From: a virus
Lineage: Duplodnaviria > Caudoviricetes
DNA length: 58,224 nucleotides
Virus record (IMG/VR): IMGVR_UViG_3300036761_003285
Location: 1 to 58,224 of that record
Strand: one strand, 5' to 3'
Shown: piece after piece, positions 559-21,798 of the stretch
Layout of the letters: each line of letters begins with the position of its first letter
How positions within the stretch are numbered: the first letter of the stretch is position 1
The notes under the pieces: generated by a model
Seen by the model: only the letters and a program-made list of their open reading frames with translations
Database searches by the model: none
What the model was told of the DNA's origin: nothing
Program-made: the position numbers and the translations under genes

Positions 559-663
559 TCCGTCGAATTCACGGAAGCTGATATCAAACGAGCCATGGAA
601 CAGAGTAGACGTAGTAGTGTTGAAAGTGTGATAGATGGGCTGGTGGGGCAATGCCTGACGTAA
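1..663 (+). CDS. Leucine-rich repeat protein, copy 1 (5' truncated by window edge)
   Basis: Frame open from base 1 (SLEGAP...). Nine 21-aa units SLEGAPVSVGGxFxCxxNxLT fitting LxxLxLxxNxL; TAA at 661-663. Confidence 0.9.
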   Translation, partial: SLEGAPVSVGGSFYCHHNLLTSLRRGPRDVGGVFYCNNNLLTSLEGAPVSVGGDFYCDHNHLTSLEGAPVSVGGIFYCHHNQLTSLEGAPVSVGGVFYCDHNHLTSLRGAPVSVDGSFFCSHNLLTSLEGAPVSVGGVFYCDHNLLTSLEGAPVSVGGVFYCNNNHLTSLRGAPVSVGGGFYCDHNSVEFTEADIKRAMEQSRRSSVESVIDGLVGQCLT

Positions 664-4763: not shown

Positions 4764-5360
4764 ATGCCGGAATTCATAAGTGCGGATCACATAGCAGCCC
4801 AAAACGGTGCGTTCGAGCCCCAGCGGAAGAACAATTTTACGCTGGTGATTGCGATCGACCAGAACAGGCTGCTCCAGCGGTCGTTGGACTCGTTTCCGCT
4901 TCCGAAGGAAGCAAACGAGGAGGTGGCTGTAAACTATGCAAATGAGGTCAGGAAGGTCGCCGGCAGGGCGGTGTTCGAGAATCTCGAGCTCGTCCTTAAG
5001 GACTTTGCCGATCAAGGTATCGGGCAATTGCTGATCGCCTGGAGACGGCAAGTGTATGATCCTTCTAACGGAAAGATCGGGCTGGCGAAGGACTACAAGA
5101 AGAGCGGGGAGGTCGTCATGTTTGCTCCGGACGGCACCTTGCAGAGGACCTGGACTCTCATTGGCTGCTGGCCGAGCAAGCTCGACCCCGGGGGCGGGGA
5201 TATGAACGCCAACGAGAACAACAAGATCTCGTGCACTCTTACGATCGACAAAGCAATCCCAGGCAAGGCTGGTTCGAAGAGCTCGTCTTCCAGCGGGCAG
5301 CAATTTGGTGGAAACACGGCCAGAGGGTCGTTGGTTGGACAGGGTTCAATTCTGGCCTAA
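4764..5360 (+). CDS. Tail tube protein (gp19-like)
   Basis: FEPQRKNNF, KDYKK, WTLIGCWPS motifs; follows sheath; AGGAGG SD. Confidence 0.92.
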   Translation: MPEFISADHIAAQNGAFEPQRKNNFTLVIAIDQNRLLQRSLDSFPLPKEANEEVAVNYANEVRKVAGRAVFENLELVLKDFADQGIGQLLIAWRRQVYDPSNGKIGLAKDYKKSGEVVMFAPDGTLQRTWTLIGCWPSKLDPGGGDMNANENNKISCTLTIDKAIPGKAGSKSSSSSGQQFGGNTARGSLVGQGSILA

Positions 5361-5387: not shown

Positions 5388-6185
5388 ATGGCACAGGAGA
5401 AAACCTCGGCGCCTGCCGCGGCGAAGGAGTTGCCTAAAGGTGCAGCAACACGTAGTCCTTACTCGATGGAGGTAACTCTGCCGAGTAGAGGCAAGTTCTA
5501 CGGAAACGCTCTTCCTGACGGAAAGGTCTGGATTCGTCCGATCACCGTCGCAGAAGAGAAATTGTTTGCCAGCAACACGAACGCAACGGATATTGCGGAC
5601 AGAGTGCTCGCCAGGTGTATTGAGTCAGAGTGCATTTCTCTTCAGGAAATGCTTCAGACTGACAAGTACTACCTTCTTCTGACTCTGCGCTCTCTGAGTT
5701 ACGGGTCAGATTACCCGCATAAGATCAAGTGCCGATGCGGGAAAGAGTACGTCCATAAGATGACAGTTCCTGATGGGCTGATGCTCAAGATGGCGACAGA
5801 GACTGACGTCGAGCCGTTCGAGGTCGACCTGCCGATGGTGAAGAAGAAGGTGACATTACGGTTCCTTCGAGGCAAGGACGAAGACCTAGTTGACCAGTAC
5901 ATCGCGCAACTCGAAGGAGCAAATGCAAATGATGGCGATCCGGGGTATGGGTATCGTCTGTCTTTACATATCGTCGCGATCGACGGTGCTGAGCCCAGTA
6001 GTCTCGAGCGACTTCGCTTTGTTGAAAGCATGCATGGCAGAGACTCTCAGACGATCCGTCGGGCGATAAGCGTAAGAGAGACAGGCGTCGATCTAACCTT
6101 GAAGGCAGTTTGTCCCTTCTGTCAGGCAGAGTTCGAAACGCTCCTGACTCTGACCCGCGAGTTTTTTCGCCCGAACGTTTCCTAG
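5388..6185 (+). CDS. Baseplate hub assembly/tail assembly chaperone (T4 gp26-like)
   Basis: LPSRGKFY, IRPITVAEEK, LRSLSYG, CxC and CPFC motifs; ends ...EFFRP. Confidence 0.8.
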   Translation: MAQEKTSAPAAAKELPKGAATRSPYSMEVTLPSRGKFYGNALPDGKVWIRPITVAEEKLFASNTNATDIADRVLARCIESECISLQEMLQTDKYYLLLTLRSLSYGSDYPHKIKCRCGKEYVHKMTVPDGLMLKMATETDVEPFEVDLPMVKKKVTLRFLRGKDEDLVDQYIAQLEGANANDGDPGYGYRLSLHIVAIDGAEPSSLERLRFVESMHGRDSQTIRRAISVRETGVDLTLKAVCPFCQAEFETLLTLTREFFRPNVS

Positions 6186-8488: not shown

Positions 8489-8857
8489 ATGATCAAGCAT
8501 CTTGAAAAACGAGTTGTTGTTGACAACAGGTACGCACTGACTGATATTCATGTTGACGATTTCGTGGGCCCCGGCCGTCGCCGCTATGGCTTGTGGAAGG
8601 CTCCGGCGATCAAGACACTTCCAGAGCTCCCTCTGAGCGAAGGTACGTACTTTAGGTACACAATCACTGCTGCAGATATCGGACGAATTGATCTCATTGC
8701 TTGGAGACACTATCAGGACGTGAATCTCTGGTGGGTCATTGCCCGGTGTAACGGGATTGCGAACCCGTTTGAGGATTTGGTCATAGGGCGGGTTCTTCTG
8801 ATTCCATACAAAGCGCTGGTGGTACAGGCCATCGAGCAAGGTAGAACTTTCGTATGA
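8489..8857 (+). CDS. LysM-type baseplate wedge protein (gp53-like)
   Basis: RIDLIAWRHY...LWWVIARCNGIANPF...LLIP. Confidence 0.88.
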   Translation: MIKHLEKRVVVDNRYALTDIHVDDFVGPGRRRYGLWKAPAIKTLPELPLSEGTYFRYTITAADIGRIDLIAWRHYQDVNLWWVIARCNGIANPFEDLVIGRVLLIPYKALVVQAIEQGRTFV

Positions 8858-10005
8858 TAATTGCTGATACTGTAGATGTTCAGGTGGGTGGCAACACTGT
8901 GAATTTTCAAAAGGTGGGTTCGCTTTCCGTTCGAGTATTCGAATCGATCTATGGCAAGTCTCAGTATCATCTTCGCTTTATGGACAGGGATGCGTCGCGG
9001 TGGAACAAGATCGCACAACAGACCGATATCTTAGTGAATATACGAATAGGTGCTGTTACGAACGTTGACACAAAGGGATTTTGGTCGAAGTGGAAGGAAG
9101 CAAGAGTTACAGGGTTGAAGCTTGTGTCGACCGCGGACAAGATTGATGTGACAATCACTGCCGAAGACGAGTTTTTTGACTTCAAAAGAAGGGCCACTCA
9201 GCGAGTCTTCATCAAGAAGTCCATTTCGGAGATGATCGAAGCTATTGCCAAAGAATACATTCTTGATACTGACCTGATTGAGACCACTGACAAGTATACA
9301 CTTCGGCAGGGATGGATGACTGATTTTGAGTTTCTTACCGAAGAGTTGCTTCCTCGAGCGCGGGCAAAGAATCCTGAGGAAGTTTTTCTTCTTTACATCA
9401 GACAGGATAGCCCCCCAAAGTTGGTTTTTACTTCGCTGGATAAGCAATCGCGGTCAGGAGAACCAAAGCTGAAGTTTCGTTGGGAGCCCACCGGGGCGTC
9501 GAAATCCGAGTTTGATCCTCTTGGCAGAGCATTCATCACTGAGTATACATCTACAACTAAGTTGGATCCCTCCAACTTCGGGACGAAAACAGTGACATTT
9601 GATGTGAATAAAGCCCAGGGTGTTCCTTACATGGTTTCCTTTCTTGCGAATGATAGTACTTACAACTATCCACTACTCGGAGCAACAAAACCTGACCCGG
9701 TATCGCCCCTGCCCGCAAAAGTGCAGAGCATCTTAATGGACGCTCTCGATCTTGACTTTCCAACTGAGCTCAAGACACGAACAGATTGGAAGTTGCGAAT
9801 GAATGAGCGGGTAGCAATTTCAACTCTACTTCTTCATGCCGCACAGATTGGTGAGATAGCCGAGATTGACGCAAAGGTTGTAGGCGGGCAGAAGCTTTTC
9901 AGCTCAGGAAGATATCTGATCTACGCGCTGTATCATATCATTTCTGGTAGAGGTTCGAAAACACTGACATTCTTGGAGCGTCGTGGTACTGTAAAGGGAA
10001 AATAA
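8854..10005 (+). CDS. Baseplate hub protein (gp27/P2 gpD-like)
   Basis: SISEMIEAIAKEY, LRQGWMTDFEFL, SGRYLIYALYH motifs; follows LysM gene. Confidence 0.75.
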   Translation: MIIADTVDVQVGGNTVNFQKVGSLSVRVFESIYGKSQYHLRFMDRDASRWNKIAQQTDILVNIRIGAVTNVDTKGFWSKWKEARVTGLKLVSTADKIDVTITAEDEFFDFKRRATQRVFIKKSISEMIEAIAKEYILDTDLIETTDKYTLRQGWMTDFEFLTEELLPRARAKNPEEVFLLYIRQDSPPKLVFTSLDKQSRSGEPKLKFRWEPTGASKSEFDPLGRAFITEYTSTTKLDPSNFGTKTVTFDVNKAQGVPYMVSFLANDSTYNYPLLGATKPDPVSPLPAKVQSILMDALDLDFPTELKTRTDWKLRMNERVAISTLLLHAAQIGEIAEIDAKVVGGQKLFSSGRYLIYALYHIISGRGSKTLTFLERRGTVKGK

Positions 10006-10646
10006 TGACCCCACAACAATTTCTACAACTACTCAGACAAAGGAAAGTCAAGTACAAGGTGGTTGATCGTTATGTAGATGTAGAAGGTGACTGTAACATA
10101 GGTGGTCTAGGTCTAGTTGAGATTCCCGTACAGTTTCGTGTAGTTACAGGAAATTTCCACTGTGACCACAACCAACTCACGTCACTAGAAGGAGCTCCTG
10201 TTAGTGTGGGTGGTCGTTTCCACTGTGACCACAACCAACTCACGTCACTCGAAGGAGCTCCTGTTAGTGTAGGTGGAGATTTCTACTGTTATTCCAACCA
10301 ACTCACGTCACTTCGTCGCGGTCCTCGAGATGTAGGTGGAGATTTCTACTGTTATTCCAACCAACTCACGTCACTCGAAGGAGCTCCTGTTAGTGTAGGT
10401 GGTATTTTCTACTGTCACCACAACCTCCTCACGTCACTTCGTCGCGGCCCTCGAGATGTAGGTGGTCGTTTCCACTGTGACCACAACCAACTCACGTCAC
10501 TAGAAGGAGCTCCTGTTAGTGTAGGTGGTGGTTTCTACTGTGACCACAACTCCGTCGAATTCACGGAAGCTGATATCAAACGAGCCATGGAACAGAGTAG
10601 ACATAGTAGTGTTGAAAGTGTGATAGATGGGCTGGTGGGGTGTTGA
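10005..10646 (+). CDS. Leucine-rich repeat protein, copy 2 (complete)
   Basis: Unique N-terminus (VDVEGDCNI...IPVQF), six full 21-aa units plus one partial, same C-terminal tail as copy 1; TAATG coupling to hub gene. Confidence 0.92.
   Translation: MTPQQFLQLLRQRKVKYKVVDRYVDVEGDCNIGGLGLVEIPVQFRVVTGNFHCDHNQLTSLEGAPVSVGGRFHCDHNQLTSLEGAPVSVGGDFYCYSNQLTSLRRGPRDVGGDFYCYSNQLTSLEGAPVSVGGIFYCHHNLLTSLRRGPRDVGGRFHCDHNQLTSLEGAPVSVGGGFYCDHNSVEFTEADIKRAMEQSRHSSVESVIDGLVGC
10182..10640 (+). repeat. 63-bp tandem array plus dispersed direct repeat of 514-648
   Basis: Units at 10182, 10245, 10308, 10371, 10434, 10497; 10506-10640 matches 514-648 with one mismatch. Confidence 0.95.
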
Positions 10647-10648
10647 GT

Positions 10649-13045
10649 ATGGATTTGTATTCACTACTTCCGGCTGTCATCAGATTCAAAGACTCGCTCA
10701 CTAAGGGAAGTGTCGGTGAGGGCGTCGTTGAGCGAATCATCTACATGATGGAGCAGGAAGGAGAAACAACAGGAGATCTCATAGCGGGGTTACTTGATCA
10801 GATCAATCCTGATGAATGCGATGCAAAGTTCTTGATCTACATCTCGTTGACCCTCGGGTTTGCCGTTTCAGAGAATGCCGGTCAACCTCCGTCTGAAGAC
10901 TTTGCCCGTTGGTTTACAAAGAATCTCGTCAATTTCTACAAGATACGCGGGCGTCCGTTCTCATGGAAGAAGCAGTGGCAGTACTTAGAGACTGGTGGTG
11001 ACAGATATCTTGAGGCCTGGGAGCTGTGGAAGGACATTCCATACGAGAGGGGTCACTACTATAGGTACGGCGGCGGGGATGCGTACTATGGGCTACTTCA
11101 TGCTGCCCGTGTAGATCTCTTTAGAGAGATCAGCGGCATCAAAGAGTTCCTGCCTGTTCTCGAAGCCATGGGTCACATGCCTACTATTGAGTGGGTTCGG
11201 CCGATCCATGTTCTGCTTCGGATGAACTACTTCACTCCTGATTTCTACGAGACCGCCGAGTTGATCTCGGATGACAATCGTGATTTTGAAGCGCTTTACC
11301 AGCCCGCAGATCAGTTGTTGAATCCATCAGATGAGTTGGACATCATCATTTCCTGTCTTGCCTCGTGTGAAACAGTGTGTGAGTCCGGGCAAGAAACAGG
11401 CTGCCTGACTTCATGCGAAGCTGATTGTGAACCGATGTACGAAGCAGCCGGCCCGCCCGGCCCGCCCGGACCCCCGGGCCCGCCAGGAGGACCCGGAGCT
11501 GATGGGTGCGACGCATGCGTTCAAGGTGTGGTCTTCCCATCAGATTCAGGAGGGAAGATTGTTATTGTACTTTTCGACTACTTTGAATGCTGGGAAGTGG
11601 GAGAGTTGATCTGCGTTGAGATTCTTGATAAGCCATCTGGTCCTGTCCCGCCCACTGCTCCAAACCTCTTTAAGTTCGAGACAACCATAACCCAGATTGA
11701 GCACTACGGCGGTGTTCTGGCAAAGATTCATCTGGACAAGTTCCAGGCAGGCACAGGCATCAAGACTGATGATTATGCGATTGTGTGCCATGGAGCGTGT
11801 TCTTGTGACGCTTGTGAAACGCAAACAACCTTTGACGCGTCCACAGGAGCTCAGCTAATCACGTTCGAAACTCACAATCCATACTGCTGGCGGAAAGATG
11901 AGCCTGTCTGTGTCTATGTTCCTGATCCTACGTGGAGATATGTCAGTACAGGCAATGTAACACAGAAGCCTACTTTCAATCTGTCAAAAAAGAAGTGGTA
12001 CGTTGAGCTTTCCGTTCAGAAGCCGCCCATTGCCAGCGGAACGATCAATCTGAAGATCGTTATCTGCCATGGAGGGTGCCCTTACACAGGACCTACCGGA
12101 CCTCGTGGTCCTACAGGACCAGCCGGGAGACCCACTGGTTTTACTGGTCCTCAGGGTCCTACAGGACCAGCAGGAGGCGGTACCGGAGGAGGCCCCACAG
12201 GACCAACCGGAGAAACTGGTTGTGACGCGTGTGTCATTGCGACGTATCTCGGAGTGGATGGTTCAGGCAGGATCAAATTCACTGTTCCTGATGATGAGCG
12301 ATGTTGGACTGTGGGAGAAGATGTTTGTGTTTCAAACATCATTCCAACGGGCGGTTCTGAACCGCCAAAGAGATTCACTGGTGTAGTGATTGACAAAGGC
12401 GCTGGATACATCACTACGGACATGCTGAATAGCAATGTGTTCATGGATTGGCAGACAAATGAGAAAGCTACAATCTGTCACGGCCCTTGCGCTTGTGATG
12501 CATGTGAAATCGTTACTGATTATGAGACTGAAAGTGCGGGGAAGTGGCTCAAGTTTTATACACTTCACTACCGGTGCTGGAAGGTAGGAGAATCTGTTTG
12601 TGCAAGTGTGATTTCGTGGAATTACCAATCAGATGGTACGATTGCGTCAGTGACAAGATTGCCCAGCCTAAATTGGGAAGTAAAGATTGATCTGGATCTT
12701 GATCCTGCTCATACTGGTTCCTACATCGGCATTGTGACTGAGATTTGTCATGGGAGTTGTGCTCCTACTGGCCCTACTGGCCCTACTGGTGCAGGTTTTA
12801 CTGGTCCTCGTGGTCCCACCGGTCCTGCGGGAAGTGGTACCGGAGGAGGTGGTCCCGGTACTTGTCCTGCTTGCTCTACATATCCACCTCCGGGAACTAT
12901 GAAAGTGCTCTGGCAGACAACAGGGGGGAGTTATCAAACCTCGAAGCCAACGCTCAAGGCTGGGGCGTTCTGGGAAACGACCTTGTATTGTTCTAATAAC
13001 CAGTACTGTTTGGTAAACGATCAAGTTTGTCTGCCACTGACCTGA
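10649..13045 (+). CDS. Baseplate wedge/tail protein I (gp7/P2 gpI-like) fused to Cys-rich collagen-like fibre
   Basis: MDLYSLLP, INPDECDAKFL, FYKIRG, RPIHV in the N-domain; then CxxxC repeats, (GPP)n and (GPT)n tracts, four CDAC...CW...C...CHGxC domains. Confidence 0.8.
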   Translation: MDLYSLLPAVIRFKDSLTKGSVGEGVVERIIYMMEQEGETTGDLIAGLLDQINPDECDAKFLIYISLTLGFAVSENAGQPPSEDFARWFTKNLVNFYKIRGRPFSWKKQWQYLETGGDRYLEAWELWKDIPYERGHYYRYGGGDAYYGLLHAARVDLFREISGIKEFLPVLEAMGHMPTIEWVRPIHVLLRMNYFTPDFYETAELISDDNRDFEALYQPADQLLNPSDELDIIISCLASCETVCESGQETGCLTSCEADCEPMYEAAGPPGPPGPPGPPGGPGADGCDACVQGVVFPSDSGGKIVIVLFDYFECWEVGELICVEILDKPSGPVPPTAPNLFKFETTITQIEHYGGVLAKIHLDKFQAGTGIKTDDYAIVCHGACSCDACETQTTFDASTGAQLITFETHNPYCWRKDEPVCVYVPDPTWRYVSTGNVTQKPTFNLSKKKWYVELSVQKPPIASGTINLKIVICHGGCPYTGPTGPRGPTGPAGRPTGFTGPQGPTGPAGGGTGGGPTGPTGETGCDACVIATYLGVDGSGRIKFTVPDDERCWTVGEDVCVSNIIPTGGSEPPKRFTGVVIDKGAGYITTDMLNSNVFMDWQTNEKATICHGPCACDACEIVTDYETESAGKWLKFYTLHYRCWKVGESVCASVISWNYQSDGTIASVTRLPSLNWEVKIDLDLDPAHTGSYIGIVTEICHGSCAPTGPTGPTGAGFTGPRGPTGPAGSGTGGGGPGTCPACSTYPPPGTMKVLWQTTGGSYQTSKPTLKAGAFWETTLYCSNNQYCLVNDQVCLPLT

Positions 13046-13047
13046 GT

Positions 13048-14439
13048 ATGTCTTCTCCTTGTGATATTGCTACAAAGATGGGACTTGCCAAGGAAGCGAT
13101 TGACGGCCTTGTTAGTCGCTGTTTCACCGGAGTAACTCCCCCAGCAAAAGTTCCTACAGTTTGGTCTGACATGTGTGGTGACACGAGCGTCAGTCTGGCT
13201 CGCCAGATGTATGTGGATGTCGTGGCCCTGGTGGCAAGAACAGATAACACAGGCCATTTAACTGGTTGGGTTGATCCCGGAGCTCCTCCTACTTGTATCA
13301 CAGGTGCTTGGCTTGATAGCTTCATTGCTGCAGTCAATGCAGTTCTGTGTGAGTGTTGTCCTGATGGGATGGATGATTGCACAAGCAACTATTCTCCCTC
13401 AAGCACGCTTCAGATCAAGATCTGCTATCGTTCAGTCACGCTTACTTGGGACGGGGAAGCTGATGATTATTGGGTTGAGTACTGTTTTGTCGCTCCTCCG
13501 TATCCTTCGTATCCGTATATCTGCCTTCAGAAAACTGAAATGCCCGGTTCGTGTATAAAGTCAGGGAATAGTGGCTGGATAACTCCAAAAACTTACACAA
13601 TCCCTGCTGATACGGCTTGCAGTCGTTCAGAAAACTGGTGCTTGTACTGGCGTGTTAAGCCGAGATGTTGTGACAGAACGGAGGGAGATCCTTGTCCTAC
13701 TTGGGAGGAGGGGCCTTTTTCTGCAATCCAAAAAATACCTGTTGAAAATGGAAACGAGGGGTTCGCACCAGATGGATATCTTGATTGGTATCCGCCCGGA
13801 TCGAACTGTATTCCTTGCAGCGGAAGTTCAAAGCTTTGCGTGAAGTGGAAAGTTGGTCCTTGTTCTCGGCTTCTCAAACTCTGGGTGCGTCTCTTCACTG
13901 GTGGTGGAGCATGGACGGAAATAGTTCTAGATCAAATTGACGTTACAACGCAGAAGCAAGGGCAATCAGAGTATCCAATCAATCCAGCGTGGTGCACAGG
14001 AGGGGGGCCGTATGTGTCCGCGTGTGTTTTTGGAAAAGTATTCTCGAGCTCAGGAGTTGAGTGTGATATTCGTACTACGTCAACACTTCCTTTTCTGCCT
14101 CCTGGTCCTAGTTGTGCTTCGATGAATGGGTGTCAGGGTACTCATCAGCCATGCACGCCCGGGGCGATTTACCCGCTTACTTCATGGATAGTTATTAACG
14201 GAGGTCCAACCAAGAATCTGACGCCGTGGAAATGTGCGGGAGCGCCCGGCGGAGTACTCTACACGGTCTGGAGAGTAGTTGAGACAGTATACAACAGAAC
14301 TTATGCGTACGGGAATGTCAGTCAAGTTGCCACGCCCGACTGCCCGAACGGATTCCAGCTTATTGATCTTCCACCGTCGTGGACCCCCGAATACTTTACA
14401 TATCCCGGTTATATGAGACTTGAACTCGGTTGTTTCTGA
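13048..14439 (+). CDS. Cys-rich putative fibre/accessory virion protein with Fn3-like segment
   Basis: About 30 Cys; VTLTWDG..DYWVEY...YWRVKP Fn3-like pattern; follows fibre gene. Confidence 0.6.
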   Translation: MSSPCDIATKMGLAKEAIDGLVSRCFTGVTPPAKVPTVWSDMCGDTSVSLARQMYVDVVALVARTDNTGHLTGWVDPGAPPTCITGAWLDSFIAAVNAVLCECCPDGMDDCTSNYSPSSTLQIKICYRSVTLTWDGEADDYWVEYCFVAPPYPSYPYICLQKTEMPGSCIKSGNSGWITPKTYTIPADTACSRSENWCLYWRVKPRCCDRTEGDPCPTWEEGPFSAIQKIPVENGNEGFAPDGYLDWYPPGSNCIPCSGSSKLCVKWKVGPCSRLLKLWVRLFTGGGAWTEIVLDQIDVTTQKQGQSEYPINPAWCTGGGPYVSACVFGKVFSSSGVECDIRTTSTLPFLPPGPSCASMNGCQGTHQPCTPGAIYPLTSWIVINGGPTKNLTPWKCAGAPGGVLYTVWRVVETVYNRTYAYGNVSQVATPDCPNGFQLIDLPPSWTPEYFTYPGYMRLELGCF

Positions 14440-15760: not shown

Positions 15761-17926
15761 ATGGCTTTGTGGTACGAGTGCGGTGCTGGATTTGTAAAAA
15801 CCCAAGTTGCCAGGGCAACAATTGGGGCAGATGTTTACTTGTGTTGCCCCGGGCCCTCTCTTGCCAAAGTCAATGATTTAGATCTTCATATTCCCGGAGT
15901 GGTGGTAGCCGCAATCAACACAGCATATCCAAAGATTAGACCGAATATCTGGTTGGGATTGGATGAACCGCAGTGTTACGACCGTCGCCTGTGGTTTGAG
16001 GGATTTGTGAAGATTACTCGAGGAAATTATAAGTTACTTGAGTGTGAAGGGAAGCCCATCAAAGATCTACCTTTCGTGTTTTTTGCTGACTGTGATTCAC
16101 CGAGTGCTGGAATTCGTGAAGTTGACTACATCCTTCAGCAGCGCGCTCACGATGTGAGGTTTGTTTGGGCGAAGAACACCTTGGTGTTTGCAATTCATGT
16201 TCTTGTGTGGTTAGGGGCTCGAAAGATCCATTTTGTTGGTTGTGATATGGGCGGGAACAAAGACTACTACGATTCTCGCATTCTTTCTGATGAAGAGCGG
16301 GCGAAGAATCAACTGCTCTATACACAGCAAGTTGAGTGGTTGCGTGAGTTTGTCCTGAAAGCCAAGGTTAGTGCAATCGAGTGCGTCAGTTGTACGGAAG
16401 GGTCTCCGTTGAATTCGATTATGCCATTTGTTCAACTAAGTGATGCTCTGAAAGCCTCTCGGAAACAGGCGCCCGAAGAGGCAGGTGAACTGATGCATTC
16501 GTCGAAATCATTTGAAGTTACAGCGACTCGAGAGTGGGCTAATGTTGTTCCTACGATTCCCGAAGCTGTGATGGTGGGAATCTCAAAGGCTGATGAAGAT
16601 CTCATTGATTGGTGGTGGTATTGGTTTTCAAAGACAAACTCTTACCCCGTACAGTTTGTTGATTTTGGCATGTCTGAAGAGGCCAGAAAGAAGTGTCGTT
16701 CTCTTGGTACTGTGATAGATCTCAATGACCCAATCAAAGAAGACGGGCAGCGGGGCTCGCTGAGAAAGCCGTTTGCTGCGCTTCTGACACACGCTGCACG
16801 GACAGTTTTCACAGATATTGATGCCGAGATTCGTGGCAATCTTGTATCTTTGTTCAAGCAAGATCTTGGTCCTCGAAAGTTCGCTGCAGCACAAGATTGG
16901 GCTGCTTCGCTAGCCTATCGAAAGAAAAACCCAAACACGGGACCTGTCATTTGCTCGGGTGTGTTTGTCTTTGATTACGGATCTGAAGTTGTAAAGAAGT
17001 GGGCTGATGCCATTCATACCCAGAAGGCAAAGTACAATGGTGATCAGTTGTATCTCAATGAGCTCTACTACAAGTGCGGCCTGTCAGACATCGTCCTTCT
17101 TGATGGCAAGGTTCATCGAACGCCACAGGAAGGCGATGATCCCGGAGTGTTGATCATGCACTACGGGGGCACGGCAAAGAATGCAGCCAGACGCGCGTGG
17201 GCTGCATTCAATTCAGGAATTCTTAGTGACCTATCCAAGGCCTATGAGTACAACTGGCGCCAGGCTTCGTTCAGTTTCACAAGAGGTGTAATTCTGGGGG
17301 CAGATCAAGCACAGGAGTGGATGCTCGAATGGTGGTGGGAGAACTACGATGCGCATAATACTCTACCTGTTTGCTTTGTTGATTTTGGTATGACCAAAGG
17401 GGCGCTTGATTGGTGCAGGCATCACGGAACAGTTACAGACCCAATTCACTTTGGTGGATACGCATGGTTCAAGAAGCCTTTGGCTACACTTGAAACCGTA
17501 TTTGCGAAAACGATCTGGCTCGATATAGACTGCCAAGTTCTGGGCAATCTTGATCCGCTCTTTGAGTACTGTAAAAGCAACGGTATCGGCATGACAGTGG
17601 ATCGAGGAACACCTGATCGGTACAAGCAGAGGTTGCCTCCCGAGGCAACCATCTACAACAGCGGCTGCATCGTGTACAACTTCAGAGACCCGGTCATGCC
17701 CCAGTGGGCGAAGATGACAGCGATCGTCTACGAGCAGCAGCCCGGGGATCAAGAAACGCTGGCACTGACGCTCAGAAGGTATGCAGTCGGCAGGATTCGT
17801 TCTATACCGAAAGAGCTTGTTCGACTACGCCTCGAAGAAGACGGCCCATGTATTGTGAGGCATTGGACTGGGCCCGTCGGCAAGGACAGAATCAGAGCAA
17901 TGAGTGTACAGGCAGAACTCAGATGA
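15761..17926 (+). CDS. Multidomain glycosyltransferase: Maf/DUF115-like domain plus two GT-A (GT8-like) domains
   Basis: CPGPSL...AIN and GARKIHFVGCD in the N-domain; two WWW...FVDFG...KP...DID...(N/C)SG...DQ...H domains. Confidence 0.75.
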   Translation: MALWYECGAGFVKTQVARATIGADVYLCCPGPSLAKVNDLDLHIPGVVVAAINTAYPKIRPNIWLGLDEPQCYDRRLWFEGFVKITRGNYKLLECEGKPIKDLPFVFFADCDSPSAGIREVDYILQQRAHDVRFVWAKNTLVFAIHVLVWLGARKIHFVGCDMGGNKDYYDSRILSDEERAKNQLLYTQQVEWLREFVLKAKVSAIECVSCTEGSPLNSIMPFVQLSDALKASRKQAPEEAGELMHSSKSFEVTATREWANVVPTIPEAVMVGISKADEDLIDWWWYWFSKTNSYPVQFVDFGMSEEARKKCRSLGTVIDLNDPIKEDGQRGSLRKPFAALLTHAARTVFTDIDAEIRGNLVSLFKQDLGPRKFAAAQDWAASLAYRKKNPNTGPVICSGVFVFDYGSEVVKKWADAIHTQKAKYNGDQLYLNELYYKCGLSDIVLLDGKVHRTPQEGDDPGVLIMHYGGTAKNAARRAWAAFNSGILSDLSKAYEYNWRQASFSFTRGVILGADQAQEWMLEWWWENYDAHNTLPVCFVDFGMTKGALDWCRHHGTVTDPIHFGGYAWFKKPLATLETVFAKTIWLDIDCQVLGNLDPLFEYCKSNGIGMTVDRGTPDRYKQRLPPEATIYNSGCIVYNFRDPVMPQWAKMTAIVYEQQPGDQETLALTLRRYAVGRIRSIPKELVRLRLEEDGPCIVRHWTGPVGKDRIRAMSVQAELR

Positions 17927-18585
17927 AGCAAGGTGTTCTAGTTGGTTGTTCGAGAGAGCAAGAGGACTTGCTCGAATGGTGGTGGGGGTGCTACAGTAAG
18001 CACAATACCCTTCCAGTCTGTTTTGTCACTTACGAGTTTGATCTAAAGGACAGTCTTCGTTTGTTGGAAAGAGGCGAAGTGGTTCAAAGTAACGAACCTT
18101 TCTCCAAAGGGACATTCAGGAAGGTGACAGCATTTAGTTTGTCGCCATTTGATGTTAATCTCTGGCTGGATCTTGACTGTGAAGTTCGAGGCGATCTCAG
18201 TCCGATTTTCTCGCTCTTTTCCTCGGGTTGTGTTTTCTGCCCCCGGGGCCCTCGCAAGTGCGGAACAAATGATCCATATGGTTGGTTCAAGATGTGTAAC
18301 TCCGGGTCATGGGTGAGAGATACTGGTCTCATTCTTGCTGATCGAGACGGTCGTTTGTATCGAAAGTGGTTTGCTGATGTGCAAGCTTTCAGCCATATGT
18401 ATCACGGTGAAAACGAGACGCTTGTGGTTGTTGCTGACCGTGAAGGACTTCCGATTGGCGAGGTTTCAGATCAGATGTTTCAATCGTGTCATCTTAATGT
18501 ATACCCGAATCCACTCGTGTTCCACTGGATCGGAGGCCGCGGGAAGTATCTACTCAGAGAGAGGATCGCCCGTGAAAGACTTTGA
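17923..18585 (+). CDS. GT-A glycosyltransferase (third paralogous domain)
   Basis: EWWW...NTLPVCFV, WLDLDCEVRGDL, HWIG; ATGA coupling. Confidence 0.75.
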   Translation: MKQGVLVGCSREQEDLLEWWWGCYSKHNTLPVCFVTYEFDLKDSLRLLERGEVVQSNEPFSKGTFRKVTAFSLSPFDVNLWLDLDCEVRGDLSPIFSLFSSGCVFCPRGPRKCGTNDPYGWFKMCNSGSWVRDTGLILADRDGRLYRKWFADVQAFSHMYHGENETLVVVADREGLPIGEVSDQMFQSCHLNVYPNPLVFHWIGGRGKYLLRERIARERL

Positions 18586-20962
18586 AGTTATTAACCCTAT
18601 TATTACTGGGAAACAAGAGCTGAGCTACCGAACAGGGCAAGGGAAGTATTATCACTTCAACGTGAGGGGTGATACTTTTGCTCTTGATGTGAACTCACTG
18701 ATGTTAATTCGAGGCCTGAAAGAGAATCTACCTCCTCCAAGTGACGAAGTTTCTCAGTTTCCATTCTGTCCTAATCGCAATGTGCTGGCACTTCTATTCT
18801 GTCTTACTCATCAGTGCAATCTGAAGTGCAAGTATTGTTACGTTGATCGGTTGTATTCATCTAACGATCGGATGACTCCCGAGATTGCCGCTACAGCGTT
18901 GACAACCTTGGTCAATCCTGATGCTGTGAGAAAGCAGGGGCTTCGGATCAGCTTTTTCGGAGGAGAGGCACTACTTGAATTCGAACTTCTCAAGCAGATT
19001 GTCTCGCTAGTCAGAACAGCTTTCCCGTCCCCCTGCCCTGTGCAGTTCAGTCTCACGACGAACGGGACGTTGTTGACTAAACCGATTGCTAAGTTCTTGG
19101 TTGAGCATAGCTTTTCAGTGATACTCTCGTTGGATGGCCCTCGTGAGCTCCACAATGAGACACGAATCTCTAGAGGAGGAGCGGGCTCCTTTGATGTTGC
19201 TCTTGAAGGACTCACTTTGTTGAACGAAGTAGCTCTGAAGAAGATTACTCTGAGAGCAACTTTCTTTCCCGAAAATCCTCGAATCATGGAGCGATTGGTG
19301 TTCTTGAATGCACTTTGTGATCAGGGCTTGGCTGCGAATGTCTCAATTGAACCTTCGATCTTGACTGAAAGTGAATGTGCCGCACAAGAGATTGATCAGT
19401 TTCAGGACAAGATCAACGCGGCAAGACTCGAGGCTGAGTACGCTGAGGCTACTGATTGGCTCCTCGGGCGATTGCGGCAGAAGAAGCCTGCGCGTTTCCA
19501 CAATATCATGCTCTATGCTGAGCGATTACTCTATCGTCGAAAGTACTGCAGTGATTGCGGAGCTGGCGTTGGGTATATCTCCATAGGACCAACAGGGAAG
19601 ATCTTTGCCTGCCACAGAGAGACCAACAGCTTGATCGGTGATCTCTCTCAGGGAGGGATAGACGAAGCACTAAGAGCACAGTGGGTAGACAATCGCTACT
19701 ATGTCAACAAAGAGTGTCGGCGGTGTGATCTTCGAAACGTTTGCGGAGGAACTTGCCGAGAGCATTCGCTTGGATCAATGGGTGATATCTTTGATGTTGA
19801 TCCGGTTCGTTGTACTTTCAAGCGACTGTGGATCCACTCAGCTGTGTATCTGATCTCCGAGCTTCCATCTGCTGATCGGACAAGTCTGATTCTGCAGAAG
19901 AAGCCACAGAAGGTCGAACTTCCTGATTCAAAGAAGGAGCGGTTCAACCTTGTTCGGGAAGCTGGCGGGTTTGGTGATATCATCTCCATTGGAGGTGCTG
20001 CTGTTCAGATCAAGAAGGAGTTCCCGAACTCGGAGATTTGCTTGTACTTGCCTGATGATTTCGTTGATGTTGCGAAGCATCTTCGTGAAATCGACCAAGT
20101 AGTAGGTCTTGGTTCTGTTGAGACACTATCTAAGCAACGTCGTGTTCGAGGCGAGAAGTTTGATTCTGGAAAGTACACATACCTTTCGAAAGTGGCTAAC
20201 CGGGGCTTAGTTGTTGATCTCTGGTGTCCTGCAGTCAAGTACGAGCAGCAAGAGAAGGATCGCATTCAGCACACACGTTCGCAGATCTTTGCAAGTGTGA
20301 TATGTAAGGAAGACTCACATGCGATTCCTCGTTGGTTCTCAACTCCTGCAGAACGTGTAAAAGCAAGTAGCTATCTGAACAAGGCATTTGGAGATCCTAG
20401 TGATACTGGACCAACAATCGCCCTGGCTGCAAGAGGCACAAAGGCGGAGAAGAATATTTCAGAGCACCATTTGCAGGATCTGCTTACTTGGTTGATCTCT
20501 AAGAACAGCAATGTTGTGTGGATGGATTGTTTGGATCCCTCTGTCATTCTACACGGGTTTGCCAACAACAAGATAGTTTGGCCGAATGTATCATTCTGTG
20601 AATCCGTAGCAATTCTCGAGCAGTGTGATCTTCTCATTTCTGTTGATACTGGAATCTTTCATGCTGGTGTGGCTGCTCGAGTTCCTACTGTTGGTGTGTT
20701 TGGGATGACAGATGGGAACCCTTATATTGGATTCTACCCCTTGACGTACGTCGTACAGAATGAAGTGCCCCATGAAGGCATTTGCACGATACCTTGCAAT
20801 TCATCTTCGGAAAAAGGACACATTGTAGGTTGTAGTCTGGCATGCGCGCGGATGCAGAACTTGTCGTTTGATGAGTTGAAGCTGGCTGTTCTTTCGGCAA
20901 TGAAGACGGCATCAGCTCCTCAGTTTCAGGAGTACCGGTTGCGCCTATTTGATGAGAAATGA
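18572..20962 (+). CDS. Radical SAM/SPASM maturase (SCIFF/CteB-like) fused to GT9 glycosyltransferase domain
   Basis: ALDVNS N-terminal motif; CNLKCKYC; FFGGEALL; TTNGTLL; SLDGPRELHN; SPASM CGAG..IFACH, CRRC...VCGGTC...C. C-terminal GGFGDII, ISVDTGIFH, VPTVGVFG. GTG at 18572 follows an AGGA SD. Confidence 0.9.
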   Translation: MKDFEVINPIITGKQELSYRTGQGKYYHFNVRGDTFALDVNSLMLIRGLKENLPPPSDEVSQFPFCPNRNVLALLFCLTHQCNLKCKYCYVDRLYSSNDRMTPEIAATALTTLVNPDAVRKQGLRISFFGGEALLEFELLKQIVSLVRTAFPSPCPVQFSLTTNGTLLTKPIAKFLVEHSFSVILSLDGPRELHNETRISRGGAGSFDVALEGLTLLNEVALKKITLRATFFPENPRIMERLVFLNALCDQGLAANVSIEPSILTESECAAQEIDQFQDKINAARLEAEYAEATDWLLGRLRQKKPARFHNIMLYAERLLYRRKYCSDCGAGVGYISIGPTGKIFACHRETNSLIGDLSQGGIDEALRAQWVDNRYYVNKECRRCDLRNVCGGTCREHSLGSMGDIFDVDPVRCTFKRLWIHSAVYLISELPSADRTSLILQKKPQKVELPDSKKERFNLVREAGGFGDIISIGGAAVQIKKEFPNSEICLYLPDDFVDVAKHLREIDQVVGLGSVETLSKQRRVRGEKFDSGKYTYLSKVANRGLVVDLWCPAVKYEQQEKDRIQHTRSQIFASVICKEDSHAIPRWFSTPAERVKASSYLNKAFGDPSDTGPTIALAARGTKAEKNISEHHLQDLLTWLISKNSNVVWMDCLDPSVILHGFANNKIVWPNVSFCESVAILEQCDLLISVDTGIFHAGVAARVPTVGVFGMTDGNPYIGFYPLTYVVQNEVPHEGICTIPCNSSSEKGHIVGCSLACARMQNLSFDELKLAVLSAMKTASAPQFQEYRLRLFDEK

Positions 20963-21798
20963 AAACGATTGACGTTGCTGTTTTCGTGAGGGACAGATAC
21001 GAGCATCTCGTGTTCTGTACTTCCTGGTTGAAGAACAGCAAGGAGTGCCCCGGAGTCGTGTTTAATCGGGTTGCCTATGACGACAGTAGTGCTGATTCAA
21101 GGGTTGGCGAGTTTCTTGGGGGTTCATATGACAAAGTAGAGTCGGTGCCGAGAGAAGTCACTGCTGTTGATCCTGAGCAGCGAATCGGATGGGCGCGGAG
21201 ATTGGCAGTACAGAACTTCCTGAAAAAGTCGATTGCAAACTTTCTGCTGCTTCTCGATAGTGATATCATCGTCACAAAAGAAACAATTGCAGAAGCTGTA
21301 AGAGATTACGAGGCGCTTAATGATTGGGTTGAGGTCGGAGGAGGTACCCTCTACGCCATCAGTCATACAACCGGGCAGATTCATGCGAACGGGAAACACT
21401 TCTCGAAGGTGGCTCTTACAGGTGATGCCCATATGCTGTTCAAGAGAGAGCATCTTGAGCGCATTGGAAACCACTTCAGTACGAAGCCAAAAGGATTTGC
21501 TGACAACCAGATTCAAGCGATTCGTGATCAAGGTAAGGTCTACTTTACTCGTATCAGTCCTCCTTATCAAGTGCAACACATTGGGTTCGGTGAGGGCGTA
21601 TCACTTGTCTACAAGCAGGAGAAGTTCAAACCCTCGTGGACAATGCGACCGTACTGGACCCATGAATCTAATCGAAGGATTCTTCAGGTGGAGAACTTTG
21701 ACGTATTACACTACATCAATTGCATCAATGCTGTGGGCGGCATCAGCGCACCTGAGGAGTACACGAAAACCAAAGGAATAGCCAATGAACACAAGTGA
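20959..21798 (+). CDS. GT2-like glycosyltransferase
   Basis: VAVFVRDRYEHL, YDDSS, LLLDSDII, VQHIG. Confidence 0.75.
   Translation: MKTIDVAVFVRDRYEHLVFCTSWLKNSKECPGVVFNRVAYDDSSADSRVGEFLGGSYDKVESVPREVTAVDPEQRIGWARRLAVQNFLKKSIANFLLLLDSDIIVTKETIAEAVRDYEALNDWVEVGGGTLYAISHTTGQIHANGKHFSKVALTGDAHMLFKREHLERIGNHFSTKPKGFADNQIQAIRDQGKVYFTRISPPYQVQHIGFGEGVSLVYKQEKFKPSWTMRPYWTHESNRRILQVENFDVLHYINCINAVGGISAPEEYTKTKGIANEHK

What the first reader, a model, noticed from the sequence alone, without database searches (positions are those of the whole stretch)
11351..11431. SCIFF-like six-Cys motif embedded in a baseplate protein
Seen: SCLASCETVCESGQETGCLTSCEADCE, two CxxxCxxxC triads, between the gp7/I domain and the first collagen tract. 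Established: SCIFF precursors have a CxxCQTSCQSACKTSCT core that is thioether-crosslinked by CteB-type enzymes, and related maturases use Asp/Glu acceptors. Inference: this is the in-protein substrate of the maturase encoded 7 kb downstream; I found no free-standing precursor peptide in the window.
Basis: partly seen in the sequence, partly recalled or inferred. Interest (0 to 1): 0.8.

Follow-up and report, generated by a model that had tools for sequence, protein, structure and literature searches.

The report
Maturase-linked cysteine–glutamate tract in phage fibre
A short cysteine/glutamate repeat in a phage baseplate-fibre protein belongs to a widespread but apparently undescribed class of repeats in virion proteins that sit beside a peptide-crosslinking enzyme, so phages probably staple their own structural proteins with chemistry known from small bacterial peptides.

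Summary
Window 11351-11431 (+) encodes SCLASCETVCESGQETGCLTSCEADCE, residues 238-264 of an 801-aa protein. That protein has a P2 gpI-like N-domain, this tract, collagen-like tracts and four Cys-rich domains.

The tract is a seven-unit period-4 repeat (C-E-x-x, one Cys replaced by Gln). It is conserved in every homologue that reaches it.

About 7 kb downstream (18572-20962) lies a radical SAM/SPASM maturase fused to a GT9-like domain. Its nearest solved relative is CteB, the SCIFF maturase. It falls below every curated family cutoff.

The association holds in both directions:
- 52 of 75 viral maturase loci carry period-4 Cys runs, and 50 of those 52 lie within 3 kb of the maturase.
- 5 of 6 contigs found from diverse CExx tracts alone encode a maturase.

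Tracts reach about 124 units and occur in gpI-like, tail-fibre-J-like and Hoc-like proteins.

Tract grammar points to Cys(i)→Glu/Gln(i+5) pairing. All six Cys in the window have Glu at i+5, and the Cys-less unit is followed by a Glu-less unit.

The tract matches neither the SCIFF nor the CXXX-repeat profile. The crosslink chemistry is inferred, not shown. I found no publication describing this.

The parts
10640..13045 (+). 801-aa baseplate-anchored fibre protein: gpI-like N-domain, CExx tract, collagen-like tracts, four Cys-rich ~100-aa domains
   Evidence: ORF and translation. PHROG tail-fibre hits on the collagen part. It follows tail sheath, tube, baseplate hub and gp25-like wedge genes.
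10640..11350 (+). P2 gpI-like (Tail_P2_I) N-terminal domain, residues 1-237
   Evidence: 8 of 14 family members match PF09684, best E 1.4e-08. L012's member hits the TIGR02242 phage tail domain at 5e-05. The family has 1110 representatives at E<=1e-3.
11330..11353 (+). Conserved segment D-E-L-D-I-I-I-S (residues 231-238) just before the tract; possibly a recognition strand (inference)
   Evidence: D231 is nearly invariant, and the [DE]-x-[FL]-x-[ILV]-x-[IV]-[ST]-C pattern appears across A3 and in many representatives.
11354..11443 (+). CExx tract, residues 239-268: CLAS CETV CESG QETG CLTS CEAD CEPMYE. Six Cys, each with Glu at i+5 (244, 248, 252, 260, 264, 268)
   Evidence: Shuffle test. Grammar statistics.
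11450..11506 (+). First collagen-like G-P-P tract (residues 271-289)
   Evidence: Translation. Weak Pfam Collagen hit at 271-289, E 0.023, below the gathering score.
18572..20962 (+). Radical SAM/SPASM peptide maturase fused to a GT9-like domain. The probable start is GTG 18572, after GAGAGAGGA; the listed ORF opens at 18335
   Evidence: Pfam Radical_SAM 3.8e-13, Fer4_12, Glyco_transf_9 1.8e-07. NCBIfam PapB 8.9e-55, SCIFF maturase 1.7e-50, QhpD 1.4e-48, all below cutoff. Conservation with relatives starts near residue 85 of the long ORF. DNA at the start.
18587..19924 (+). Maturase core: CxxxCxxC radical SAM motif and SPASM Cys motifs (CX2CX5CX3C), all invariant in 10 relatives
   Evidence: Invariant columns C82, C86, C89, C329, C347, C382, C385, C391, C395, C414 in A4. 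The A4 profile hits CteB (5wgg) at 2.6e-78 over chain residues 90-449.
19955..20959 (+). GT9-like (heptosyltransferase-fold) domain; role unknown
   Evidence: Pfam PF01075. Weak PDB hit to LPS heptosyltransferase, E 0.0038. A GT9-like hit follows the maturase in 9 of the 12 closest viral loci and in L012. It is a separate ORF in L012, L014, L015, L018, L021 and L022.

Best explanation
The 27-residue motif is the core of a short C-E-x-x period-4 tract (residues 239-268). The tract sits at the junction between a P2 gpI-like baseplate domain and a collagen-like fibre shaft.

During infection, the phage's own radical SAM/SPASM enzyme (18572-20962) most likely treats this tract as an in-protein substrate. 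The enzyme belongs to the CteB/PapB/QhpD-like ranthipeptide maturase group.

By analogy with PapB and QhpD, the enzyme would abstract a hydrogen from the side-chain methylene next to the carboxylate of a Glu. It would then join that carbon to the sulfur of the Cys five residues upstream. That would give six overlapping Cys(i)-Glu(i+5) thioether rings: 239-244, 243-248, 247-252, 255-260, 259-264 and 263-268.

The product would be a covalently stapled, redox-insensitive rigid segment where the fibre leaves the baseplate. In relatives the same kind of tract is much longer and takes the place of the collagen shaft.

What is shown: the tract, its conservation, the enzyme's family and intact cluster motifs, the two-way genomic association, and the donor/acceptor grammar.

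What is inferred: that modification happens at all, that it is a thioether, its i to i+5 topology, and its mechanical role.
For: (1) Enzyme.
- The best NCBIfam hits are PapB, SCIFF maturase, nif11 maturase and QhpD (E 1e-48 to 1e-54).
- A profile of 10 relatives hits CteB (5wgg) at 2.6e-78.
- All radical SAM and SPASM Cys are invariant.

(2) Association starting from the tail protein.
- The only complete relative (135 kb, CheckV 100%) has the same motif and a 43%-identical maturase-GT9 fusion about 6 kb downstream.
- Metagenome contig L012 has two gpI-like paralogues with long tracts plus a 35%-identical maturase.
- That is 2 of 2 informative contigs; the other 7 loci were too short or cut off.

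(3) Association starting from the enzyme.
- Of 75 viral maturase loci (exact duplicates removed), 52 have a run of >=4 period-4 Cys.
- 50 of those 52 lie within 3 kb of a maturase hit, although only 44% of the sequence does.
- 35 of the runs are in frames >=200 aa.
- In the 12 closest loci: 8 have long runs, 2 have the short two-block motif after a gpI-like domain, 1 has a single triad, and 1 is cut 1.2 kb upstream.

(4) Association starting from tracts alone.
- 5 of 6 contigs with sequence-diverse CExx tracts in large ORFs encode a maturase relative (E 1.9e-32 to 9.7e-91).
- The exception is a 23%-complete fragment.

(5) Grammar.
- In 322 chains of >=3 Cys from 150 family representatives, E/Q/D follows interior Cys in 89% but the first Cys in only 46%.
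- Five residues after the last Cys it is 45%, or 77% once the 133 cases with Cys at that position are set aside. Offset +4 gives 16%, +7 gives 9%, and background is 18%. The loci set gives the same picture.
- At 13 single missing-Cys gaps, E/Q/D is kept in the Cys-less unit in 12, and none shows the opposite pattern.
- L020 has lost the third Cys and also the Glu five residues on.

(6) Precedent, from passages read.
- QhpD makes Cys-Asp and Cys-Glu thioethers inside a protein subunit.
- SCIFF maturases in vitro link Cys32 to Thr37, 'five residues apart'.
- PapB accepts Asp/Glu C-terminal to the Cys, from i+1 to i+7.
Against: - No chemistry was observed; everything rests on sequence and gene neighbourhood.
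- The enzyme is below the curated cutoff of every named family (best 186 bits vs 340), so its reaction cannot be transferred with confidence.
- No RRE-type leader-binding domain is detectable. The match to CteB starts at chain residue 90, and there is no PqqD-like Pfam hit.
- The enzyme is 7 kb from the tract, with five other genes between them. It is flanked by glycosyltransferase-like genes, so another target is conceivable.
- Other very Cys-rich proteins lie nearby: 13027-14439 with 30 Cys, and the four Cys-rich domains of the same protein.
- In long tracts Gln is nearly as common as Glu at the acceptor position (558 E vs 477 Q). PapB crosslinking has so far been restricted to acidic acceptors (passage).
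- 4 of 13 gap events keep Glu in both units. At least 7 of the 8 supporting events are homologous copies in one family, so the i+5 topology is supported only moderately.
- 23 of 75 maturase loci show no run.
- Loci found through the enzyme are not independent of one another; near-duplicates remain.
Confidence: 0.62

Rival explanations
1. The tract is modified by the maturase, but not as Cys(i)-Glu(i+5) intrachain thioethers. Alternatives are a different acceptor position (i+1 or i-3), alpha-carbon (sactionine) links, interchain links that staple the three chains of the fibre, or oxidation of Cys as anaerobic sulfatase maturases do.
For: The enzyme belongs to no curated family. Anaerobic sulfatase maturase is its third-best solved relative (3e-29). 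For CteA itself, the in vitro and in vivo link positions disagree (Thr37 vs Thr34; passages). The position next to a trimeric collagen tract would suit an interchain staple. 4 of 13 gap events keep Glu in both units.
Against: The edge asymmetry fits i+5 and fits neither i+1 nor i-3: the first Cys usually lacks a following E/Q, and the last Cys has an extra E/Q at +5. No gap event shows Glu tracking its own Cys (0 of 13). Known relatives act within one chain (passages).
Confidence: 0.17
2. The tract is an unmodified structural element next to the collagen helix. It could be a metal-binding segment or a disulfide 'knot' that registers the three chains. On this reading the maturase acts on some other target: another Cys-rich tail protein, or a peptide encoded outside this 58-kb fragment.
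For: The tract directly precedes a collagen tract. Cystine knots beside collagen helices are known (recalled, not checked here). The same protein and its neighbour are Cys-rich throughout (36 and 30 Cys). The window is probably a fragment, since a relative's complete genome is 135 kb, so a precursor elsewhere cannot be excluded. Small CXXX-repeat peptides sit beside more distant viral maturases (L064 and others).
Against: The association between tract and maturase holds from both directions and across unrelated carrier proteins. Tracts of about 124 units (L021) are hard to explain as a registration knot. The one-to-one Cys/Glu(i+5) bookkeeping has no obvious reason in a disulfide or metal site. 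The short upstream paralogues in relatives carry a C-x3-C-E-x3-E module with no collagen after it. No precursor-like small ORF exists in the window.
Confidence: 0.17
3. The motif is a chance or low-complexity feature of a Cys-rich protein and has no specific role.
For: The protein is 4.5% Cys. Simple 12-bp tandem DNA repeats that happen to encode CExx exist in viral contigs without a maturase: 0 of 4 such contigs had one.
Against: 0 of 20000 shuffles reach the observed six C-x4-E pairs. The six Cys and four Glu are invariant at 29-55% overall identity. 108 of 150 family representatives carry period-4 chains of >=3 Cys. The tract is not a DNA tandem repeat, because its x positions differ.
Confidence: 0.02

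Closest known systems
SCIFF ranthipeptides and their maturase CteB / Tte1186 (TIGR03973 / TIGR03974)
   Same: Period-4 Cys spacing with Gln/Glu/Thr-rich intervening residues. CteB is the nearest solved relative of the maturase (2.6e-78). The thioether reported in vitro is from a Cys to a residue five positions downstream (passage).
   Different: SCIFF precursors are free ~45-aa peptides with a leader bound by an RRE. Here the tract lies inside an 801-aa virion protein and no RRE is detectable. The tract fails the SCIFF profile, and the maturase scores 172 bits against a 425 cutoff. The acceptor would be Glu, not Thr.
Freyrasin PapA / PapB (NF047865)
   Same: PapB is the best-scoring NCBIfam model for the maturase (8.9e-55). 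Freyrasin has six Cys-to-acidic-residue thioethers, with the acceptor C-terminal to the donor, and the enzyme tolerates i+1 to i+7 spacing (passages).
   Different: The native PapA motif is C-x3-D in a small peptide; here it would be C-x4-E, with rings overlapping. The score of 186 bits is below the 340 cutoff.
QhpD acting on QhpC, the gamma subunit of quinohemoprotein amine dehydrogenase (TIGR03906)
   Same: A SPASM enzyme of the same group that installs Cys-Asp and Cys-Glu thioethers inside a protein that stays part of a larger assembly (passages). This is the clearest precedent for an in-protein substrate.
   Different: QhpC is a small enzyme subunit with three irregularly spaced links and no repeat. 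Here the tract is regular and sits in a virion fibre. The score of 166 bits is below the 453 cutoff.
CXXX-repeat radical SAM target peptides and their maturases (TIGR04114/04117, TIGR04115)
   Same: Tandem C-x-x-x repeats next to a SPASM maturase. Small viral peptides such as L064 do hit TIGR04114 (23.2 bits, cutoff 20).
   Different: These are defined bioinformatically on small peptides. I found no paper holding both 'CXXX repeat' and 'radical SAM'. Neither the window tract nor the 124-unit L021 tract hits these models at E<=1. The maturase scores 75 bits against a 350 cutoff. The C-E/Q-x-x type is embedded in 200-1400-aa virion proteins.
Other covalent reinforcements of extracellular assemblies: HK97 capsid isopeptide 'chainmail', collagen cystine knots (both recalled, not checked here)
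   Same: Covalent cross-linking of a structural protein that must survive outside the cell.
   Different: Those links are autocatalytic or oxidative. Here a dedicated radical enzyme would be needed, the link would be a thioether, and the site is a tail fibre.

Membership tests
SCIFF precursor (TIGR03973, six-cysteine ranthipeptide) | Match to the curated profile | tested here: not met
   Window residues 215-275 give 0 families at E<=1. The control L232 scores 77.3 bits (cutoff 50), E 6.2e-22.
SCIFF precursor (TIGR03973, six-cysteine ranthipeptide) | Free-standing small precursor (~45-50 aa) with an N-terminal leader | tested here: not met
   The tract is residues 239-268 of an 801-aa protein with conserved domains on both sides.
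SCIFF maturase ScfB/CteB (TIGR03974) | Score at or above the curated cutoff | tested here: not met
   172.3 bits against a cutoff of 425. It is still the closest solved structure by profile.
PapB family ranthipeptide maturase (NF047865) | Score at or above the curated cutoff | tested here: not met
   186.2 bits against a cutoff of 340; this is the best of 74 NCBIfam hits.
Radical SAM/SPASM peptide maturases (superfamily level) | CxxxCxxC radical SAM motif plus a SPASM domain with CX2CX5CX3C and flanking Cys | tested here: met
   Pfam Radical_SAM and Fer4_12 are above cutoff. The Cys are invariant across 10 relatives. Alignment to CteB runs through the SPASM domain, to chain residue 449 of 453.
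Radical SAM/SPASM peptide maturases (superfamily level) | N-terminal RiPP recognition element (PqqD-like winged helix) | tested here: inconclusive
   No PqqD-like Pfam hit, and the match to CteB starts after its RRE. A conserved ~65-residue N-terminal segment does exist, but its fold was not determined.
Ranthipeptide-type modification (non-alpha-carbon thioether) | Cys sulfur bonded to the beta or gamma carbon of an acceptor residue | not testable with these tools
   This needs mass spectrometry or NMR. Only the donor/acceptor sequence grammar could be examined.
CXXX-repeat rSAM target system (TIGR04114 / TIGR04115) | Target matches TIGR04114 and the maturase reaches the TIGR04115 cutoff | tested here: not met
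   The tract region gives no hit at E<=1. The maturase scores 75.4 bits against a cutoff of 350.
Phage tail protein I (Pfam PF09684 Tail_P2_I) | Profile match of the N-terminal domain | tested here: inconclusive
   8 of 14 aligned family members match (best E 1.4e-08), but the window protein itself does not at E<=0.1. The gene position after sheath, tube, hub and gp25-like genes fits. The AlphaFold model was too poor to test the fold (pLDDT 54).
Collagen-like fibre protein | G-X-Y repeats | tested here: met
   G-P-P and G-P-T tracts are visible in the translation. PHROG tail-fibre families match residues 483-527. The Pfam Collagen hit on the window protein is weak, but 4 of 14 family members match.

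The most novel reading that the evidence does not exclude
C-[EQ]-x-x tracts are a previously unrecognised structural material of phage virions. They would be rods of overlapping thioether rings, one per four residues and up to about 124 in a row, made by phage-encoded radical SAM/SPASM enzymes. They would be used interchangeably with collagen-like helices as shafts and junctions in tail fibres, baseplate proteins and head decoration proteins. The window's six-ring segment would be the minimal junction form. On this reading, the RiPP maturase families known from small peptides would have a large second life as builders of protein-scale cross-linked polymers.
Probability: 0.4. Interest if true: 0.9.

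Novelty: new variant of a known kind. Interest (0 to 1): 0.8.

Why it matters
Radical SAM/SPASM thioether chemistry is known almost only from small secreted peptides; the QhpC subunit is the one protein-substrate precedent I saw. If the reading is correct:
- Phages apply this chemistry to their own virion proteins, on tracts from 6 to more than 100 repeats.
- That would be a new kind of covalent reinforcement of virus particles, and one that does not depend on an oxidising environment.
- It would explain a large set of unexplained phage 'radical SAM' genes; one such gene has been interpreted as an antibiotic-synthesis gene (cyanophage paper, passages).
- It would give enzymologists a leader-independent, highly processive substrate class.
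- It would give protein engineers a genetically encoded way to make stapled rods.

It is directly testable by co-expressing two genes from this window.

Tried and rejected
- Co-folding the maturase core (alignment A4) with residues 215-275 of the fibre protein, three 4Fe-4S clusters and SAM gave no verdict (score 0.02, mark 0.32). I draw nothing from it.
- AlphaFold2 of residues 1-300 with a 14-row alignment gave mean pLDDT 54. That is too poor for a fold search, so none was run. Its beta-hairpin for the tract is not trusted.
- A profile of the N-domain against PDB sequences gave only a chance-level hit (acyl carrier protein, E 0.016).
- tblastn of the whole protein against the 'phages' collection found nothing. 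A single-protein scan of viral contigs with the N-domain also found nothing.
- The genome-contig scan with the tail-protein alignment A1 found nothing. A3 was too divergent to seed a scan.
- The DNA pattern scan for four C-E-x-x units returned mostly simple 12-bp tandem repeats in short frames. I set those aside as a different phenomenon after 0 of 4 such contigs had a maturase. Only 6 of the 80 listed loci were diverse tracts in large ORFs, so the reverse test is small. I chose those 6 by eye from the table.
- L159, a 131-aa diverse tract, has only a weak maturase-like hit with two TAG stops and was left out of the 5-of-6 count.
- I considered that the GT9-like domain might be a protein heptosyltransferase of the autotransporter type (recalled). 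The only PDB sequence hits were weak ones to LPS heptosyltransferases and a GT9 protein, so this stays open.
- Literature: no paper held 'CXXX repeat' with 'radical SAM'. The listings for 'radical SAM/phage/tail fiber/thioether' (2 papers), 'ranthipeptide/phage' (50 papers, 20 listed), 'SPASM/bacteriophage/cysteine-rich/structural protein', 'SPASM/phage/RiPP/virion' and 'phage-encoded/radical SAM/peptide maturase' showed nothing on radical SAM modification of phage structural proteins, judged from titles and abstract starts only.
- No supplementary files were consulted.
Full report
**1. The observation**

Window 11351-11431 on the plus strand translates to SCLASCETVCESGQETGCLTSCEADCE. The opposite strand has a stop. 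The motif is residues 238-264 of an 801-aa ORF, 10640-13045.

The protein has 36 Cys (4.5%), against 2.2% over the 62 plus-strand ORFs tabulated. It is the only one of those ORFs with CxxxCxxxC, and it has two. In all six frames there are four such triads in segments of 30 aa or more. The other two lie in minus-strand frames opposite the plus-strand genes and were taken to be non-coding.

I shuffled the residues of this protein 20000 times. Two or more triads appeared in 98 shuffles. Six C-x4-E pairs within 26 residues never appeared; the maximum was four. The feature is real and is not explained by composition.

**2. Context in the window**

The genes upstream match PHROG families as follows:
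- tail sheath (3226-4731, 9.1e-96)
- tail tube (4764-5360)
- baseplate hub (5388-6185)
- a gp25-like wedge protein (8489-8857)

The N-terminal 237 residues of the 801-aa protein have no Pfam hit of their own. However, 8 of 14 aligned family members match Tail_P2_I, best E 1.4e-08.

After the tract comes a G-P-P collagen tract. After that come four ~100-aa Cys-rich domains separated by G-P-T tracts.

About 7 kb downstream, ORF 18335-20962 carries Radical_SAM, Fer4_12 and Glyco_transf_9 domains. NCBIfam ranks PapB (8.9e-55), SCIFF maturase (1.7e-50), nif11 maturase and QhpD (1.4e-48) on top, all well below their cutoffs. Conservation with relatives starts near residue 85 of this ORF. A GTG at 18572 follows GAGAGAGGA, so I take 18572-20962 as the gene.

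A profile of ten relatives hits PDB 5wgg at 2.6e-78 over chain residues 90-449. A figure legend names 5WGG as CteB, the SCIFF maturase, with an N-terminal RRE. The phage enzymes align to the radical SAM and SPASM parts only. All cluster-binding Cys are invariant.

No small open frame in the window looks like a precursor peptide.

**3. The motif is one repeat, and it is conserved**

In register the tract reads CLAS CETV CESG QETG CLTS CEAD CE. That is seven units of period four with one Cys replaced by Gln.

The three database homologues are 29-55% identical over the N-terminal region. They keep all six Cys and E244, E248, E252 and E260. The most distant one replaces the collagen tract with a run of about 15 C-x-x-x units.

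Loci found through the tail protein show the same short form: L002, L003, L006, L007, L009 and L010, with L008 cut inside it. L012 shows long forms in two tandem paralogues. Upstream paralogues in L002, L003, L006 and L008 end in a minimal C-x3-C-E-x3-[ED] module.

A profile search of 1.84 billion cluster representatives found 1110 family members at E<=1e-3. Of the best 150, 93 have a period-4 chain of four or more Cys, 15 have a chain of three, 11 have pairs only and 31 have none. Many of the 31 are short fragments or partial matches.

**4. Association with the maturase, tested from three starting points**

*From the tail protein.* Nine loci were found, and two are the same contig. Only two contigs are long enough downstream to judge, and both encode the enzyme:
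- The 135-kb record rated 100% complete has a maturase-GT9 fusion (E 7.9e-187, 43% identity) about 6 kb downstream of the motif-bearing gene.
- L012 has a 35%-identical maturase followed by a separate GT9-like ORF.

*From the enzyme.* A scan of viral contigs found 224 stretches encoding relatives, and the best 80 were kept.
- After removing exact duplicates, 75 loci remain. Of these, 52 have a run of at least four period-4 Cys in a frame of 50 aa or more.
- 50 of those 52 lie within 3 kb of a maturase hit, although only 44% of the sequence does. 35 are in frames of 200 aa or more. Near-duplicates remain in this set, so these are not independent counts.
- Among the 12 closest loci (L013-L024, 33-41% identity), 8 have long runs, 2 (L013, L020) have the short two-block motif after a gpI-like domain, L024 has one triad in a 1474-aa frame, and L018 has none. 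In L018 the contig ends 1.26 kb upstream of the enzyme.

*From tracts alone.* A DNA pattern for four C-E-x-x units returned 80 listed loci, mostly simple 12-bp tandem repeats.
- Six were sequence-diverse tracts in large ORFs. Five of those six contigs encode a maturase relative: L135, L106, L163 and L137, and L166, which is the L019 contig.
- The exception, L103, is a fragment rated 23% complete.
- Four contigs of the simple-repeat type had none, 0 of 4.

*In cellular assemblies.* The three closest maturases (two planctomycete MAGs and one unclassified MAG, 32-37% identity) also have tracts in 855-1390-aa proteins just upstream. Canonical SCIFF peptides appear beside more distant enzymes.

**5. 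Carrier proteins**

The tract occurs in three kinds of carrier protein:
- gpI-like proteins
- proteins with weak central-tail-fibre-J hits (L017, L220)
- a Hoc-like head decoration protein (L261, 1.5e-89)

L021 encodes a 615-aa protein with about 124 consecutive units. The tract is therefore a portable module of virion surface proteins.

**6. Grammar of the tract**

In the window every Cys has Glu five residues downstream: 239/244, 243/248, 247/252, 255/260, 259/264 and 263/268.
- The unit lacking Cys (Q251) still has its Glu (E252), which would serve C247.
- The next unit (C255-L256) lacks Glu, where no donor exists.
- The first Cys is followed by Leu.
- E268 lies outside the C-x3 register yet is conserved.

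This bookkeeping holds in all the short-form homologues. L020 has lost the third Cys together with the Glu five residues on.

Across 111 chains from 91 distinct frames in the loci, E/Q/D follows interior Cys in 93% and the first Cys in 41%. It stands five residues after the last Cys in 54%, against 25% at +4 and 23% at +6.

In the separate set of 150 representatives (322 chains of three or more Cys) the figures are as follows:
- after interior Cys: 89%
- after the first Cys: 46%
- at last+5: 45% E/Q/D and 41% Cys (a one-residue register shift)
- among the 189 chains without the register shift: 77% E/Q/D at last+5
- at last+4: 16%; at last+7: 9%; background: 18%

At 13 places where a single Cys is missing inside a tract, E/Q/D is kept in the Cys-less unit in 12. 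It is lost in the following unit in 8, kept in both in 4, and never shows the reverse pattern. At least seven of the eight are homologous copies in the gpI family, so this last test has few independent events.

Taken together, the grammar favours Cys(i) pairing with Glu/Gln(i+5) over Glu belonging to its own Cys. It does not prove it.

**7. What is known about the closest enzymes (passages read)**

- SCIFF maturases in vitro link Cys32 to Thr37, 'five residues apart'. In vivo the link was assigned to Thr34 at the gamma carbon.
- QhpD makes Cys-Asp and Cys-Glu thioethers inside the QhpC protein subunit.
- PapB makes six Cys-Asp links in freyrasin, attacks the carbon next to the side-chain carboxylate, needs the acceptor C-terminal to the Cys, and tolerates i+1 to i+7.

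Six Cys-Glu(i+5) links are therefore chemically ordinary for this enzyme group.

**8. Membership**

The tract region does not match the SCIFF or CXXX-repeat profiles at E<=1, while a true SCIFF peptide and a small viral CXXX peptide do. The maturase reaches no curated cutoff. No RRE is detectable. The system works like a ranthipeptide system but is not a member of any named family.

**9. Weak points**

- No chemistry has been seen.
- The enzyme lies 7 kb away, among glycosyltransferase-like genes.
- Other Cys-rich proteins lie nearby.
- Gln is nearly as frequent as Glu in long tracts.
- 23 of 75 maturase loci show no run.
- The unbiased tests are small: 2 of 2 and 5 of 6.
- Co-folding gave no verdict, and the monomer model was unusable.
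- The role of the GT9-like domain is unknown. It is fused in the window and in L002 and is a separate adjacent ORF in several relatives.

**10. Novelty**

In seven literature searches I saw no description of radical SAM/SPASM modification of phage structural proteins or of C-E-x-x tracts. I judged this from listings, and from passages in six papers. One cyanophage paper interprets a phage radical SAM maturase as an antibiotic-synthesis gene (passages).

I rate the finding a new variant of a known kind, with high interest.

Noticed in passing
window 25-663 and 10005-10646: Two paralogous proteins built of ~23-residue repeats (GGxFYCxxNxLTSLEGAPxSVGG) with a shared C-terminal tail. The second sits between the gpJ-position gene and the fibre gene, where relatives carry a short gpI paralogue instead. 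Only weak PHROG hits of unknown function.
   Followed up: no
window 11507-13045: Four ~100-aa Cys-rich domains (CDAC ... CW.VGE.VC ... ICHGxC, six Cys each) separated by G-P-T collagen-like tracts. They are shared with L002, L003 and L007 homologues. Whether they are disulfide, metal or maturase sites is unknown.
   Followed up: no
window 13027-14439: A 470-aa protein with 30 Cys (6.4%), no CxxxC pairs and no family hit in Pfam, PHROGs or NCBIfam.
   Followed up: no
window 15761-17926, 17704-18585, 20959-21798: Glycosyltransferase-like genes flank the maturase: weak GT8 (E 0.005) and GT2 (E 0.004) hits. The 721-aa protein has an internal duplication that shares a '...EWWW...PV.FVD...' segment with the 293-aa ORF. 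They may glycosylate the Thr-rich collagen-like tracts or the tract itself; this was not tested.
   Followed up: partly
L021 1591-3438: A 615-aa viral protein with about 124 consecutive C-[EQ]-x-x units, 1.3 kb upstream of a 35%-identical maturase. This is the longest tract seen.
   Followed up: partly
L261 11050-12741: In an isolate genome (record title Aedoeadaptatus nemausensis), a 563-aa Hoc-like head decoration protein (PHROG 1.5e-89) starts with a Cys tract and lies directly after a maturase relative. Similar 520-570-aa proteins follow maturases in viral loci L030, L032, L035, L043, L075 and L078.
   Followed up: partly
L217 (G012:C1:31522-32316): A maturase-like match (E 1e-15) interrupted by two TAG codons, in a contig that also carries a 131-aa diverse Cys tract (L159). 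This could be TAG reassignment or a broken gene.
   Followed up: no
P0018, P0020, P0066, P0090, P0109; P0034, P0038, P0064, P0069 and others: Some gpI-family representatives carry minimal C-x3-C-E-x3-E modules at the very N-terminus, or inserted inside the domain between the 'KSARVD' and 'RPIHV' segments. The module can therefore be placed at several points of the fold.
   Followed up: no
L122, L146, L160, L170 and many of L093-L172: Simple 12-bp tandem DNA repeats that read as CEYN/CESN/CEPS... in short frames are common in viral contigs, giant-virus MAGs included. The four tested contigs lack a maturase. They are probably unrelated to the diverse tracts.
   Followed up: partly
L218, L219, L220: The nearest maturase relatives in cellular assemblies sit in two planctomycete MAG contigs and one unclassified MAG, next to 855-1390-aa tract-bearing proteins that begin M-[AS]-[RV]-T-L-T like the viral L017/L019/L022 proteins. 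They may be prophages or binned phage contigs, which gives a possible host hint.
   Followed up: partly
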